A stretch of 64,000 nt of DNA from a virus (Duplodnaviria; Heunggongvirae; Uroviricota; Caudoviricetes). Shown piece by piece: positions 24,001 through 27,000 of this stretch. Position 1 is the stretch's first letter, and the number at the start of each line of letters is the position of its first letter. The DNA lies in the IMG/VR virus record IMGVR_UViG_2703718819_000007; one strand, written 5' to 3'. A program made the position numbers.

Positions 24001-27000
24001 ATTATCGCTCATGAGAGCCAACTGAAAGCACTGTCCCGTCTGGCTGCTAAGCAAGGCTTCTCCGGTGAAGACGCTATCGTCGATATGCTGGGAACAGACA
24101 TCGCCTACTACAACGGTGAAGACAAGGGTGTATTCATGCTGGCTAAACGCTTCACGGCTCTGAGCTTCGGTTGCTTCCGTCACGATGGCGAGAATATTAC
24201 GGTCGTCCTTTCACGTGATGGCGACTCTCAGTCCCACGACTTGGAAATCCTCGGTAAAGTGTACGTTGTCGCTGAAGCTGCTACGACCATCAAGATGGGC
24301 ACTGGCTCAGCTACTGCCGTCCTGCCTGTAGTCAAACGCCTGAAGTTCACCAAGACCGAAGCGTAAGACCAATGGGTAAGAGCATTAGTAAAGGCTTCAG
24401 GTCCATCGCCAAGGGCCTGACAGGTGGTGGTGGGACTCAAGGTGGGGCTTCGGTCCCGCCTCCTGTAGCTCCTCCTGTAGCTCCTCCAGATGACGCTCAG
24501 CAAGCTGTAGTCGATACCCAAGGTCAGGAGACCGAGGGAGGTAAGACCATGAGCAGAGGTAAGTCTGGACTGAATATCAGCAGGACTTCAGGTGGTGGCC
24601 TGTCACTGTGATTAAGACATCTATACAGCCTGTGGAGGGTGGACGATATCAAGCAACAATCTGGATGACACGCAGAGTCTATAAGCGGCTATGCTGGTCA
24701 CTGGCTGAAGCTGAACAGTGGGTGAGACGTAAAGTGCCTACCGTTCAATCGTTCCAATCATCATGATAACTATGGTCTGGACCAATGGTCTGGACCTTTG
24801 TTTTGTACTAGTTATCTAGTGCAGTAGTACAATAGACGAAGGAGGCTTTATGTCCATGACTTCCGCAGACCTAAGGTCCCTCCTGACTCTGGTCTATAAA
24901 CTCGTGCTCCTCTCTGTGGGTCTCTATATGGTCCTCTCCGGTCGACTCGGTGTGAATGTATTCGACACTCTGTCTAAGGCTGTGGGTGGGCTTCTGGGGG
25001 CTTAGGTTTGGACTCACAGTGGGACCGATGGTTTCTGACAGAAAAATGTGAATGACCATCTAATACATTAAGCCAGCAGACTTCTCCCCCATAGCCCCGC
25101 CTCAAGTCCAGACCGAGGCCACCGGGGTCCTGACCAGCCGTCTAGACATCCCGTCTAATGACACAAGGCTGACACAAAGCCTGACACAAAGTCCTTGACT
25201 CAATGCAGGACCTCAGACCTACTAAGGGTCCGCTTCAAGTCCTTGAAGTTCCAGATGAACTTAATGGGCACATCCAGTTTATCTTTGCCGCGGACGCCGT
25301 CGCGGATTGCCGTCATTTGCGGACCATGATCGATAGCATCTGTCCAGCTGAAGCAGGAGATTGACATTTTGACCGGATTATCCAGCACCGGCAGGCGTTC
25401 TATGGTAATGGTATAGGTCGATTCACGCGCGCCACTATTTCCGCCGCTGATGCCGACATTGCCCGTCAAAATAGGTAACATAGCAATAGCGCGTGCAGTC
25501 AGTTCGCCGTTTGCCTGGCGTTGCGGCCCCCAGCCCTGGCAGATATAAGCGGGTTTTGCTGTGCCAATTTCACGCGCCAGTTTGATGATACGGTCTACCG
25601 GGATACCGGTAATTTGCGAAGCCCACTGCGGCGTTTTCGCTGTGTTATCATCACCTTCACCAAGAATATAGGCTTTATAGTGACTATTTTTGGGTGCATC
25701 TGCGGGTAAGGTTTTTTCGTCATAGCCGACGCAGTATTTATCGAGAAAAGGTTGATCAACGAGATTTTCGTTAATCAATACCCAGGCAATACCCGCAACC
25801 AGCGCGGCATCGGTGCCCGGGCGAATAGGGAGCCATTCATCTTCACGACCAGCAGCCGTATCGGTATATCGCGGATCGATAGCAATCATTTTGGCGTTCG
25901 ATTTCTCGCGCGCTTTTTCAAGAAGATAAGTGATGCCACCGCCGCTCATGCGGGTTTCTGCCGGGTTGTTACCAAACATCACGACCAGCTTGCTGTTTTC
26001 AATATCCGTGGTGCTGTTGCCATCATTACTGCCGTAGGTGTAGGGCATGGCACAGGAAATTTGCGCGGTGCTGTAGGAGCCATACTGATTGAGTGAACCG
26101 CCGTAGCAGTTCATCAGGCGTTTGACCGCCGAGGCTGATGGCGAAGAGCGGGTCATATTGCCGCCAACGATCCCCGAAGAGTACTGAATATATACAGCCT
26201 CATTGCCATATTGTTCGACGGTTTTCTTCAGGCTACTGGCGATAGTATCCAGGGCTTCATCCCAGCTAATCCGTTCGAATTTGCCTTCGCCGCGTTTGCC
26301 CACGCGTTTCATTGGGTAATTCAAGCGATCGGGATGATTAATACGCCGACGGATGGATCGACCACGCAAACAGGCGCGTACTTGATGATTGCCATACTCG
26401 TCGCTGCCGGTGTTGTCAGTTTCCACCCAGGTGACTTCATTATCTTTAACATGTAGACGAAGTGCACAGCGGCTACCACAGTTGACGGAACAGGCACCCC
26501 AGATCACTTTTTCGCTGGCCTGTTGTACCGCTGCCGCTGCACTGCGCAGGGTGAACGGTAAAGAAAAACCGCCTGCAGCCAGCGCCAGAGAACCTATCGC
26601 GGTTGATTTAACGAGTGTTCTGCGGCTGATGCCCACCATTCGGTCATTTTTGGACATAACTCACTCCCTGTTCTTTATCGTTATATAAATGTTTATATAT
26701 TGAATATTTAGCGCGCTAACAATAGAGGGAGTCTACCCATTTTGGGTTAAGAATTATTAATCCATATCAATAGAAGGGTATGAGTAATAAGGTGGGATTA
26801 TGTTGTATGTTCAAATCGCCGGATGTGTCGTATCCGGCGTTCAGTCGATAATGTATTACTGCGGTTCGGCAGGCGCGCCATCCTGGGTAGACTGCGCGGG
26901 AGCAGAGACGTTACCGCTGGTGGTGCGGGTATAGAGAATTTTATGCGTATCATTAGCGCAATGGCCGACGACCTGGGAATCAGGCTGATCAACCTGGTCA

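What the first reader, a model, noticed from the sequence alone, without database searches (positions are those of the whole stretch)
24771..25005. Terminal small membrane peptide preceded by a direct repeat ATGGTCTGGACC x2
The last islet gene (24850-25005) encodes a 51-aa peptide with one hydrophobic helix and a strong AAGGAGG RBS. It is preceded by two tandem copies of ATGGTCTGGACC (24771-24796). Small single-helix peptides at the ends of islands are often toxins, holin-like effectors or abortive-infection modules, so this is a candidate effector if the islet acts in defence.
Basis: inference. Interest (0 to 1): 0.45.

Follow-up and report, generated by a model that had tools for sequence, protein, structure and literature searches.

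The report
Terminator hairpin plus small membrane-peptide gene
The "direct repeat" is the two arms of a conserved RNA hairpin (terminator-like), and the 51-codon ORF after it is a real, unannotated small membrane-peptide gene sitting just before a copy of the T7-phage genome-end signal, in a 6.7-kb islet that looks like an undescribed satellite of T7-like phages.

Summary
The ORF (24850-25005), its AAGGAGG site and the two ATGGTCTGGACC copies are present. The conserved unit is the 10-mer GGTCTGGRCC at 24774-24783 and 24787-24796. The two copies pair as a 10-bp RNA stem followed by TTTGTTTTGT. Across 26 upstream variants the hairpin is kept in 25, with wobble-compatible and compensatory changes and varying loops. 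A sister lineage has a hairpin there that is not a direct repeat. So it is a terminator-like hairpin, not a protein-binding repeat.

The ORF is under purifying selection (pN/pS 0.26 in frame, 1.14 and 1.60 out of frame). It encodes a transmembrane helix plus an amphipathic helix. It is conserved in every related islet, as a 51-aa or a 25-36-aa form. No RefSeq record examined annotates it.

The islet, inserted in ynfE, carries Kayfunavirus/T3-type phage-RNA-polymerase promoters, a gp7.3 homologue and a mimic of the T7-like terminal repeat beginning 53 nt after the ORF. The peptide therefore sits where T7 gene 19.5 sits, but sequence homology tests negative. Its function is unknown: a late, 19.5-like membrane or lysis-timing role is my best guess. 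A defence-effector role is untested, and no known defence system was detected.

The parts
24774..24796 (+). RNA hairpin formed by the two 'repeat' copies. The 5' arm GGTCTGGACC is at 24774-24783, the loop AAT at 24784-24786 and the 3' arm GGTCTGGACC at 24787-24796. The stem has 10 bp, including a tandem U.G/G.U.
   Evidence: The terminator scan reports a stem of 10 pairs and a loop of 3. The RNA fold is -16.6 kcal/mol on the + strand against -10.9 on the - strand. The hairpin is kept in 25 of 26 upstream variants. In 12 distinct variants 99.2% of cells are paired, 2 pairs show compensatory changes and 4 show wobble-compatible one-sided changes.
24797..24806 (+). T-rich tail TTTGTTTTGT directly after the stem
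   Evidence: Other variants have TTATTT, TTTATTTT, TTATTA, TGTTGTTA or TCATTA.
24803..24824 (+). Second, weaker hairpin TTGTACTAG-TTAT-CTAGTGCAG. It is present only in some intergenic variants of both sublineages.
   Evidence: Fold. It is shared by the window, L005, L011, L025, L026 and L030 types.
24839..24845 (+). Shine-Dalgarno sequence AAGGAGG, 4 nt before the ATG
   Evidence: A purine-rich SD is present in most variants but absent in L001, L004 and L023.
24850..25005 (+). Gene for a 51-aa membrane peptide with a TM helix (about residues 8-31) and a C-terminal amphipathic helix. It is unannotated in every RefSeq record examined.
   Evidence: pN/pS is 0.26 in frame against 1.14 and 1.60 in the other frames, over 12 unique sequences. 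There are 36 protein clusters at 76% identity or more, all unnamed. 'Annotated features: none' appears.
24608..24766 (+). 52-aa ORF whose stop precedes the hairpin by 7 nt. It is present in only some islets.
24372..24611 (+). 79-aa homologue of T7 gp7.3 (a virion/ejection protein). It is present in only some islets.
   Evidence: phrog_1320 E=1.8e-11 and PF11653 E=0.0057. BLASTP against T7 gp7.3 gives E=4e-6.
25027..25058 (+). Box GATGGTTTCTGACAGAAAAATGTGAATGACCA. It is homologous to the sequence immediately left of the terminal repeat in T7-like phages.
   Evidence: By-eye alignment with PE3-1, BHUENT8, ST59, Pkp-1, JA10 and T7. Exact 14-mer TCTGACAGAAAAAT shared with JA10.
25059..25136 (+). 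Mimic of the start of a T7-like terminal repeat (TCTAATAC...CTCCCCCATAGCCCC...AAGTCCAGACC...GGTCCTGACC). The inferred cut-site analogue lies between 25058 and 25059.
   Evidence: BLAST hits to the genome-end region of Kayfunavirus and other Studiervirinae phages. TCTCCCCCATAGCCCCGCCTCAAGTCCAGACC is 90.6% identical to BHUENT8. T7's physical left end TCTCACAG... aligns here.
25159..25195 (+). Three copies of TGACACAARG, with two more at 18704-18723 on the other side of att. They are either short-repeat arrays like those flanking T7 terminal repeats or integrase arm sites.
25249..25259 (.). Right att core AGTTCCAGATG. The left copy is at 18535-18545. The islet splits ynfE.
   Evidence: The same junction is seen in all E. 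coli loci. The attP junction is seen in metagenome contigs L011-L013.
18657..18684 (+). Concatemer-junction-like TTCTCTGGGTCTCCCTATCTGTATCAGC (the end of the terminal-repeat mimic). It lies across the att core from the repeat start, so the full mimic is contiguous only in the excised form.
   Evidence: Exact 14-mers shared with BHUENT8 and Pkp-1, collinear with the terminal-repeat-start match.
21106..21128 (+). Phage-RNA-polymerase promoter CCTAAACTATCACTATAGGGAAG. A second one is at 20677-20699. These are the likely source of the + strand transcripts that reach the hairpin.
   Evidence: It matches over most positions the annotated PE3-1 phi9 and phi10 promoters, which share TAAACTATCACTATAGG.

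Best explanation
The two 'repeat' copies are the arms of an RNA hairpin made on + strand transcripts. A U-rich tail follows it. It works as an intrinsic, T7-Tphi-like terminator or 3'-end-stabilising structure. It closes the structural-gene transcription unit of the islet, which is driven by promoters for the RNA polymerase of an infecting T7-like (Kayfunavirus/T3-type) phage.

The 51-codon ORF after it is a real gene for a small single-pass membrane peptide. It lies between the hairpin and the islet's mimic of the T7-type genome end, which is the position of gene 19.5 in T7-like phages.

My best guess for function is as follows. The peptide is made late in helper infection, from transcripts that read through the hairpin. 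It then acts at the inner membrane like gp19.5, modulating lysis timing or DNA maturation and release for the satellite.

Shown: the hairpin with its conservation and covariation, the coding constraint on the ORF, the membrane-helix prediction, and the synteny with the phage genome end.

Inferred: termination activity, the time and source of transcription, and every part of the peptide's function.
For: Hairpin.
- It is called terminator-like, with a 10-bp stem and tail TTTGTTTTGT. The equivalent site is also called in L014 and L007.
- The + strand RNA folds at -16.6 kcal/mol (z -2.9), against -10.9 for the - strand.
- It is present in 25 of 26 distinct upstream variants.
- Across 12 distinct arm variants, 99.2% of cells are paired. 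Two pairs change on both sides (G-C to A-U, U.G to A-U). All one-sided changes give G.U on the + strand. Only 1 of 500 shuffles reached the observed value, both for the percentage of cells paired and for the covariation score. Slid registers fall to 64% or less.
- Loops vary: AAT, TGAG, TTCG, TTTG, TTAT, and a 12-nt insertion that itself extends the stem. C(UUCG)G tetraloops recur in several variants.
- The sister lineage has GGTCAGAC...GTCTGGCC followed by TTTATTTT at the same place. That is a hairpin but not a direct repeat.
- Hairpin type and peptide type recombine freely.
- It starts 5-8 nt after a cluster of stop codons of whichever gene is last.

ORF.
- pN/pS is 0.26 in frame against 1.14 and 1.60 out of frame. 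The short form gives 0.19 against 1.47 and 1.40.
- The frame is intact in all complete islets examined, in E. coli, Shigella, Leclercia, Citrobacter, Enterobacter, Buttiauxella and metagenomes.

Context.
- Phage-type promoters lie on the + strand and match the annotated PE3-1 promoters over most positions.
- A gp7.3 homologue is present, and one variant carries a gp16-like gene.
- The terminal-repeat and concatemer-junction mimic is shown.
- In T7 and PE3-1, gene 19.5 is the last gene before the right terminal repeat and encodes a 49-52-aa hydrophobic protein.
- gp19.5 is genetically implicated in lysis (PMC2680503, PMC8365609).
Against: - No experiment or transcript data were available, so termination is inferred from sequence only.
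- The U-tract is poor in some variants (TCATTAC in L001 and L004).
- One islet (L031) has lost one arm yet keeps the ORF.
- The arm sequence is more conserved than pairing alone requires. It is the exact reverse complement of GTCCAGACC in the terminal-repeat mimic, which hints at an additional sequence-specific role.
- No phage-type promoter and no convincing sigma-70 promoter lies between the hairpin and the ORF. An efficient terminator would therefore starve both the ORF and the pac region of transcripts.
- The peptide has no detectable homology to gp19.5. It gives no phrog_2193 hit, and hhalign probability is 0.2%.
- The charge distribution predicts the opposite membrane orientation to gp19.5.
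- There is no tblastn match in 50,697 phage genomes.
Confidence: 0.55

Rival explanations
1. The hairpin acts at the DNA level in concatemer processing. It would be an analogue of the T7 'M-hairpin', an inverted repeat next to gene 19.5 and left of the right terminal repeat, whose deletion impairs concatemer processing. In this reading the hairpin, the small ORF and the terminal-repeat mimic form one maturation module.
For: The hairpin lies about 265-285 nt left of the inferred terminal-repeat start, and the 19.5-position ORF sits between them. In T7, gene 19.5 and the M-hairpin are adjacent, their joint deletion gives late lysis and small plaques, and gp19.5 was proposed to help generate the hairpin (Kim and Chung 1996 and Kim et al. 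1997, as cited in PMC2680503). Kayfunavirus phages have a 12-bp inverted repeat about 180 nt left of their terminal-repeat start (my reading). The arm is the reverse complement of a terminal-repeat motif.
Against: In the islets the hairpin is upstream of the ORF, whereas the candidate inverted repeat I read in PE3-1 lies downstream of gene 19.5. The T-rich tail, the position right after stop codons and the recurrent UUCG loops are RNA-terminator features, and the phage inverted repeats I could read lack them. The one-sided changes give G.U only on the + strand. The hairpin sequence has no match in phages. I could not read the primary M-hairpin papers.
Confidence: 0.17
2. The two copies are direct-repeat binding sites for a protein. 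Candidates are an operator for the small gene, iterons, integrase or excisionase arm-type sites, or small-terminase sites.
For: There are two exact 12-mers. The 10-mer core is strongly conserved while the downstream spacer is hypervariable. Copy number expands to 5-6 in L004. GGTCYNGRCC sites are enriched, and all fall inside the islet. Inverted copies lie in the terminal-repeat mimic.
Against: Spacing between copies varies at 12, 13, 14 and 22 nt. The sister lineage has complementary rather than direct arms. Compensatory changes keep pairing. The repeat is about 450 nt from the att core, and TGACACAA arrays are better arm-site candidates. The candidate DNA-binding genes of the islet (KilA-N, AP2, HNH) vary between islets that share the same hairpin.
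Confidence: 0.08
3. The peptide is a host-protective or abortive effector. This covers superinfection exclusion, a membrane toxin or an Abi module, expressed from the resident islet or on infection. It is the first reader's idea.
For: It is a small single-TM peptide at the island end with a strong SD. Some intergenic variants have -10-like elements such as TATAAC or TG-n-TAGTAT, 16-17 nt after a weak -35 inside the 3' arm (my reading). Satellites often interfere with their helpers (general knowledge).
Against: No PADLOC, Pfam or PHROG match was found. The consensus scan finds no + strand sigma-70 promoter upstream in four variants. There is no partner gene, no antisense RNA and no Rfam family. 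The conserved synteny is with the packaging signal, not with a variable 'defence hotspot'.
Confidence: 0.2

Closest known systems
T7 Tphi and other class I (hairpin plus U-run) terminators, and bacterial intrinsic terminators
   Same: A stable G+C-rich stem-loop is followed by a U-rich tract. It lies on the coding strand directly after the structural genes of a unit transcribed from T7-type promoters. In T7 and PE3-1, Tphi likewise follows the capsid gene region. UUCG-type loops occur in both.
   Different: The stem is shorter (10 bp with two G.U pairs) and weaker than Tphi, and there is no sequence similarity to it. Its arms happen to be direct repeats of a near-palindrome. Activity is untested.
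T7 gene 19.5 product (phrog_2193 / DUF5465)
   Same: It is the last gene before the right-hand terminal repeat. The product is 49-52 aa with one hydrophobic helix and no assigned function, and is genetically linked to lysis timing and possibly concatemer processing.
   Different: There is no detectable sequence or profile similarity. The predicted membrane orientation is opposite. In phages about 240 nt of short repeats separate 19.5 from the terminal repeat, whereas here only about 53 nt do. No phiOR-like promoter lies upstream.
Plasmids carrying a T7 origin plus the T7 concatemer junction, which T7 packages as concatemers (Chung and Hinkle 1990; from my own knowledge), and small satellites of virulent phages such as PICMIs (PMC10803314)
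   Same: Like PICMIs, the islet is a small integrase-bearing element with no recognisable packaging machinery of its own. Its dependence on a lytic helper is inferred here. Like the T7 plasmids, it carries phage promoters and a genome-end mimic that could make it a substrate for helper replication and packaging.
   Different: PICMIs occur in Vibrionaceae and share no genes with this islet. Here the trigger appears to be the helper's own RNA polymerase, and the genome-end mimic is split by attP. Packaging has not been demonstrated.
Type I toxin-antitoxin peptides (Hok, TisB, Ldr, Ibs and others)
   Same: A small hydrophobic single-helix peptide encoded in a mobile element, with structured RNA upstream.
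   Different: There is no antisense RNA gene, no conserved - strand promoter, no Rfam hit and no family match. The upstream hairpin is a 3'-end structure of the preceding operon, not a translational fold-back of the peptide's mRNA.

Membership tests
Intrinsic (Rho-independent / class I phage-RNAP) terminator | G+C-rich stem-loop on the transcribed strand | tested here: met
   10-bp stem with 6 G-C pairs. The fold is -16.6 kcal/mol. It is conserved in 25 of 26 variants, and covariation is shown.
Intrinsic (Rho-independent / class I phage-RNAP) terminator | U-tract immediately 3' of the stem | tested here: met
   The window has TTTGTTTTGT. Most variants have TTATTT or TTTATTTT, but L001, L004 and L023 have the poor TCATTAC.
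Intrinsic (Rho-independent / class I phage-RNAP) terminator | Position downstream of the last stop codon of a co-oriented transcription unit | tested here: met
   It starts 7 nt after the TGA at 24764-24766. In other islets it follows whichever gene is last.
Intrinsic (Rho-independent / class I phage-RNAP) terminator | Transcripts actually end there | not testable with these tools
   No transcriptome data were available.
T7 gp19.5 family (phrog_2193, DUF5465) | Significant sequence or profile match to the family | tested here: not met
   T7 and PE3-1 gp19.5 hit phrog_2193 at about 1e-24 to 1e-25, while the islet peptides give no hit at E up to 10. hhalign probability is 0.2%.
T7 gp19.5 family (phrog_2193, DUF5465) | Last gene before the right terminal repeat, about 50 aa, one hydrophobic helix | tested here: met
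Holin | Match to a holin family, and linkage to endolysin or spanin genes | tested here: not met
   No Pfam or PHROG holin hit was found. The islet has no lysis genes.
Holin | Membrane permeabilisation on expression | not testable with these tools
   This needs an expression and lysis assay.
Known anti-phage defence systems (PADLOC) | Any islet protein matches a defence-system model | tested here: not met
   0 families for all 10 proteins at E up to 0.1.
Type I toxin-antitoxin | Cis- or trans-encoded antisense RNA controlling the peptide mRNA | tested here: not met
   No Rfam family reached E up to 1 in 18400-25400. The only - strand promoter-like site lies in the hypervariable spacer.
Direct-repeat protein-binding sites (iterons, arm-type sites) | Direct orientation and fixed spacing conserved among relatives | tested here: not met
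   The period is 12, 13, 14 or 22 nt. The sister lineage has complementary arms only.
Phage satellite (context of the finding) | Integrase plus att sites, and an excised form | tested here: met
   Integrase match to PF00589 and phrog_1. The att core is shown. The peptide-attP-int order is seen in contigs L011-L013 from three metagenome assemblies.
Phage satellite (context of the finding) | Helper-specific packaging signal and helper-responsive expression signals | tested here: met
   This is met by sequence similarity only.
Phage satellite (context of the finding) | Helper-dependent packaging and transfer | not testable with these tools
   This needs infection and transduction experiments.

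The most novel reading that the evidence does not exclude
The hairpin, the small membrane peptide and the split terminal-repeat mimic together form the release and packaging module of a previously undescribed family of about 6.7-kb Enterobacterales satellites of T7-like (Kayfunavirus/T3-type) virulent phages. The helper's own RNA polymerase switches the satellite on. The genome-end signal becomes contiguous only after excision, because attP lies inside it. The peptide is a non-homologous functional replacement of gp19.5 that retunes lysis or concatemer maturation in the satellite's favour. The hairpin arm, which is the reverse complement of a terminal-repeat motif, would take part in that processing as well as in termination.
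Probability: 0.3. Interest if true: 0.8.

Novelty: new variant of a known kind. Interest (0 to 1): 0.5.

Why it matters
Taken alone, the repeat is an ordinary terminator-type hairpin. The peptide is one more unannotated small membrane protein.

What makes the locus worth attention is where it sits. It is the last gene before a mimic of the T7-type genome end, in an islet that carries promoters for T7-like phage RNA polymerases.

I found no description of a satellite of T7-like coliphages in the literature library. Only the ynfE-interrupting element has been catalogued (PMC7192596).

If the reading holds, the small gene offers a compact handle on two open questions. The first is what gene 19.5-type peptides do in T7-like infections. 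The second is how a minimal element gets itself transcribed, cut and packaged by a virulent phage.

It also shows that a conserved small gene is missed by the annotation pipeline: none of the RefSeq records listed for the 167 matching E. coli genomes annotates it.

Tried and rejected
1. Homology of the peptide to anything known. Pfam, PHROGs and PADLOC gave only sub-threshold noise, such as DUF6131 at E=0.024. tblastn against 50,697 phage genomes gave nothing. The 5.8-billion-protein search found only close relatives in the same islets.

2. Homology to gp19.5. This was rejected by HMMER and hhalign.

3. Identity of the upstream 331-aa protein as a T7-type capsid.
- hhalign against T7 gp10 was negative.
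- The PDB profile search was negative.
- The AlphaFold2 model was unusable (pLDDT 40.5), so no fold search was run.
- The exhaustive profile search found 64 representatives. Some carry C-terminal Ig-like domains, as virion surface proteins often do. This is suggestive only.

4. My early note that the 79-aa protein resembles gp6.7 was wrong. PF11653 and phrog_1320 correspond to gp7.3.

5. A sigma-70 promoter for the small gene. By-eye candidates with a -35 in the 3' arm were not confirmed by the consensus scan or by my scoring.

6. A phage-type promoter right upstream of the ORF. None was found.

7. The idea that about 6.6-kb contigs carrying the peptide are all free circles. Most are ordinary chromosomal fragments. 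Only L011-L013 show the attP junction, and L011 has no terminal overlap.

8. The hairpin sequence in phages. There was no match.

9. Rfam. There was no family.

10. Literature. No paper on T7-type satellites or on this islet was found.
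Full report
**Observation**

- The ORF 24850-25005 (+) encodes 51 aa and is preceded by AAGGAGG at 24839-24845.
- The exact 12-mers ATGGTCTGGACC lie at 24772-24783 and 24785-24796, separated by one A. They are the only exact copies in the window.
- The 9-mer core GGTCTGGAC occurs 5 times in the 64 kb against 0.33 expected.
- The peptide has one clearly hydrophobic segment, with a 19-residue Kyte-Doolittle mean of 2.14 at residues 11-29.
- AlphaFold2 predicts two helices, 5-29 and 35-50, with mean pLDDT 85.6.

**Setting**

The ORF is the last gene of an islet of about 6.7 kb (about 18537-25260) inserted in ynfE.
- The two halves of ynfE are at 17520-18686 and 25200-26657 on the - strand.
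- The att core AGTTCCAGATG is present at 18535-18545 and at 25249-25259.
- A tyrosine integrase is at 18612-20234.
- At least 28 complete E. coli genomes carry 80% or more of the islet, in every listed case next to truncated DMSO/selenate reductase subunit A (ynfE) fragments.
- 167 E. coli genomes carry at least part of its right end.
- None of the records listed annotates any feature over the small ORF.
- ynfE-interrupting integrative elements have been catalogued before (PMC7192596).

**The repeat is a hairpin**

GGTCTGGACC is a near-palindrome, so two direct copies are also an inverted repeat.
- On the + strand the copies pair over all 10 positions, with a central tandem U.G/G.U, loop AAT and tail TTTGTTTTGT.
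- The terminator scan reports this as its only terminator-like site in 24300-25300.
- The RNA folds at -16.6 kcal/mol on the + strand and -10.9 on the - strand.

I aligned the right ends of the window and nine E. coli islets. I then extended the comparison to 49 fetched loci, including Shigella, Leclercia, Citrobacter, Enterobacter, Buttiauxella and metagenome contigs.
- The conserved unit is the 10-mer. The 'AT' prefix is not conserved.
- The spacer between copies is AAT, TGAG, TTCG, TTTG, TTAT or TC, or a 12-nt insertion (TCCGTAGCTGGA) that itself extends the stem.
- L004 has five or six copies. L031 has lost one copy.
- 25 of 26 distinct upstream variants fold into the hairpin.
- On 12 distinct arm variants, 99.2% of cells pair.
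- Two pairs change on both sides (G-C to A-U, U.G to A-U).
- All one-sided changes (U-A to U-G, A-U to G-U, C-G to U-G) are wobble-compatible on the + strand only.
- Slid registers drop to 64% or less paired.
- C(UUCG)G loops recur in several variants.

The most telling evidence comes from a sister lineage of islets, whose 331-aa protein is 80-92% identical. At the same position it has GGTCAGAC-loop-GTCTGGCC followed by TTTATTTT. That is a hairpin but not a direct repeat. Pairing is therefore the conserved property, and the direct-repeat appearance is incidental.

The hairpin always begins a few bases after the stop codons of whichever gene comes last. That gene is the 52-aa ORF here, and the gp7.3-like or the 331-aa gene elsewhere.

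**The ORF is a gene**
- Across 12 unique nucleotide versions, pN/pS is 0.26 in frame against 1.14 and 1.60 in the other two frames.
- The sister lineage has a different, shorter hydrophobic ORF at the same place: MDLHKVYLVVFLLKLGLVVWLWAIRR, 25-36 aa depending on the islet.
- That short form gives pN/pS 0.19 against 1.47 and 1.40.
- By eye the two forms share an N-terminal DL(K/R/H)..VY.LV.(F)L motif and the TM helix.
- Hairpin types and peptide types occur in all combinations. L048 has the direct-repeat hairpin with the short peptide.
- The peptide family is narrow. It comprises 36 clusters, all 76% identical or more, all unnamed and all in this kind of islet.
- It has no match in Pfam, PHROGs, PADLOC, Rfam or 50,697 phage genomes.

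**What the islet is**

Several independent results point to T7-like phages.

(i) The 79-aa protein upstream is a homologue of T7 gp7.3. It hits phrog_1320 at 1.8e-11, and BLASTP against T7 gp7.3 gives 4e-6. A metagenomic variant (L040) carries a 1314-aa protein with an SLT domain, like T7 gp16.

(ii) The islet has + strand sites with the T7-family promoter core CACTATAGGG at 20677-20699 and 21106-21128.
- The second site, CCTAAACTATCACTATAGGGAAG, matches over most positions the annotated phi9 and phi10 promoters of Kayfunavirus PE3-1, which share TAAACTATCACTATAGG.
- Other islets carry tandem promoters with different specificity blocks, including a T3-like AATAACCCCTCACTATAGGG.

(iii) The conserved non-coding DNA after the small ORF is homologous to the genome end of Studiervirinae phages.
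- The window reads GATGGTTTCTGACAGAAAAATGTGAATGACCA|TCTAATAC...CTCCCCCATAGCCCC..AAGTCCAGACC.
- Kayfunavirus reads CGATGAGTTTTGGACCAAAAGTTTGAGACCACA|TCTCACAG...CTCCCCCATAGGCCC..AAGTCCAGACC.
- T7 reads AAAAATCTGAGTGACTA|TCTCACAGTGTACGG...TTCCCCCATAGGGGG.
- The bar marks T7's physical left end, which is the start of its terminal repeat.

(iv) The matching end of the repeat, the concatemer-junction signature TCCCTATCTGTATCAGC, lies at 18657-18684. That is on the other side of the att core. The full mimic is therefore contiguous only in the excised form.

(v) Contigs from three metagenome assemblies (L011-L013) show the excised order peptide-attP-integrase.

No islet protein matches a known defence system. 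I found no paper describing such an element.

**Position of the peptide**

In T7 and PE3-1 the last gene before the right terminal repeat is gene 19.5. It encodes a 49-52-aa protein with one hydrophobic helix, and the family (phrog_2193) has no assigned function.

Evolution experiments implicate gp19.5 in lysis timing. Older work links it, together with an adjacent 'M-hairpin', to concatemer processing (PMC2680503, PMC8365609).

The islet peptide occupies the same position relative to the terminal-repeat mimic, but it is not a detectable homologue.
- It gives no phrog_2193 hit.
- hhalign probability is 0.2%.
- Its charge distribution predicts the opposite orientation in the membrane.

**Mechanism: best reading**

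Transcripts started by the helper's RNA polymerase at the phage-type promoters run through the + strand genes. They then meet the hairpin, which terminates or stabilises most of them, as Tphi does after the capsid gene in T7 and PE3-1.

Read-through would carry polymerase across the small ORF and into the terminal-repeat and concatemer-junction mimic. The peptide would then be made late and insert in the inner membrane.

Only the structure, its conservation, the coding constraint and the synteny are shown. Termination, timing and function are inferred.

An open problem is that I found neither a phage-type nor a convincing sigma-70 promoter between the hairpin and the ORF.

**Rivals**

(a) A DNA-level M-hairpin-like role in concatemer maturation.
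- For: the location and the 19.5 analogy. The arm is also the exact reverse complement of the terminal-repeat motif GTCCAGACC at 25106-25114.
- Against: the U-tail, the position right after stop codons, the UUCG loops and the + strand wobble pattern.

(b) Direct-repeat protein-binding sites. Variable spacing, the non-direct sister hairpin and the compensatory changes argue against this.

This is untested and has no positive evidence.

**Verdict**

The repeat is an ordinary terminator-type hairpin. The ORF is a real, conserved, unannotated small membrane-peptide gene of unknown function. Its interest comes from its place in what appears to be an undescribed T7-type phage satellite.

Noticed in passing
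window 20677-20699 and 21106-21128 (+); many sites in L001-L040: T7-family single-subunit RNA-polymerase promoter-like sites (core CACTATAGGG) lie upstream of the islet's genes, and all are on the + strand. The second matches over most positions the annotated Kayfunavirus PE3-1 phi9 and phi10 promoters, which share TAAACTATCACTATAGG. Other islets carry tandem promoters with different specificity blocks (T3-like AATAACCCCTCACTATAGGG, or GGTACACTATAGGGAGA). This suggests the islet is switched on by the RNA polymerase of several kinds of infecting T7-like phage.
   Followed up: partly
window 25027-25136 together with 18657-18684: A mimic of the T7-like terminal repeat is split by the att core. 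The pre-repeat box, the cut-site context and the repeat start are at the right end. The concatemer-junction signature CCCTATCTGTATCAG is at the left end, inside the annotated 5' part of int. The signal is contiguous only after excision, which could couple packaging to excision.
   Followed up: partly
L011, L012, L013 (ENA ERZ1524542, ERZ1524543, ERZ1524541): Contigs from three metagenome assemblies show the order 163 aa, 329 aa, 80 aa, peptide, attP, integrase with no chromosomal flank. This is the excised, circular or concatemeric form of a related islet.
   Followed up: partly
window 24372-24611 (+); L040 259-4203: The islets carry homologues of T7 ejection and virion proteins. Here it is a 79-aa gp7.3-like protein. 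One metagenomic variant has a 1314-aa SLT-domain protein like gp16, next to an HNH endonuclease.
   Followed up: partly
window 23371-24366 (+) and 22804-23295 (+): The 331-aa and 163-aa proteins are the conserved core of the family and have no known family. The AlphaFold2 model of the 331-aa protein was poor (pLDDT 40.5). Distant homologues sometimes carry C-terminal Ig-like domains (Big_2, He_PIG), as virion surface proteins do. A capsid-like role is possible but unproven.
   Followed up: partly
window 20449-20648: Three imperfect direct repeats with a period of 80-83 nt, each containing CTTGACAT and an AT-rich TTTATATATAC block, lie between int and the first phage-type promoter. They may be a replication origin or a regulatory array.
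   Followed up: no
window 20310-20339: The hairpin GGAGGGTGATAATAATCATAATCCCTCC is nearly identical to a sequence found between genes 19 and 19.5 of Kayfunavirus phages (PE3-1 L041 71-99). It is another piece of phage right-end DNA, placed here after int.
   Followed up: partly
window 19361, 19920, 22621, 24774, 24787, 25106, 25126: Palindrome-like GGTC-NN-GACC motifs are enriched, and every one in the 64-kb window lies inside the islet. There are 10 strand-matches against 1.26 expected. The meaning is unknown.
   Followed up: no
window 17520-18686 and 25200-26657 (-): ynfE (selenate/DMSO-type reductase subunit A) is split by the islet, and excision would restore it. ynfE is listed among 'regulated gene integrity' candidates in PMC7192596.
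   Followed up: partly
L022 and L028 (Shigella flexneri SFBU1023); L024-L030, L032: One Shigella genome carries two islets of the family at different sites. Sister-lineage islets use other attachment sites, so the integration module is exchangeable.
   Followed up: no
L001, L008, L009, L017 and hits H1, H4, H15-H19, H22, H23: Many copies of the islet are interrupted by insertion sequences (IS66, IS21, IS3, IS4 and IS1 families), and L009 is a remnant. The element is often decaying in E. coli genomes.
   Followed up: no
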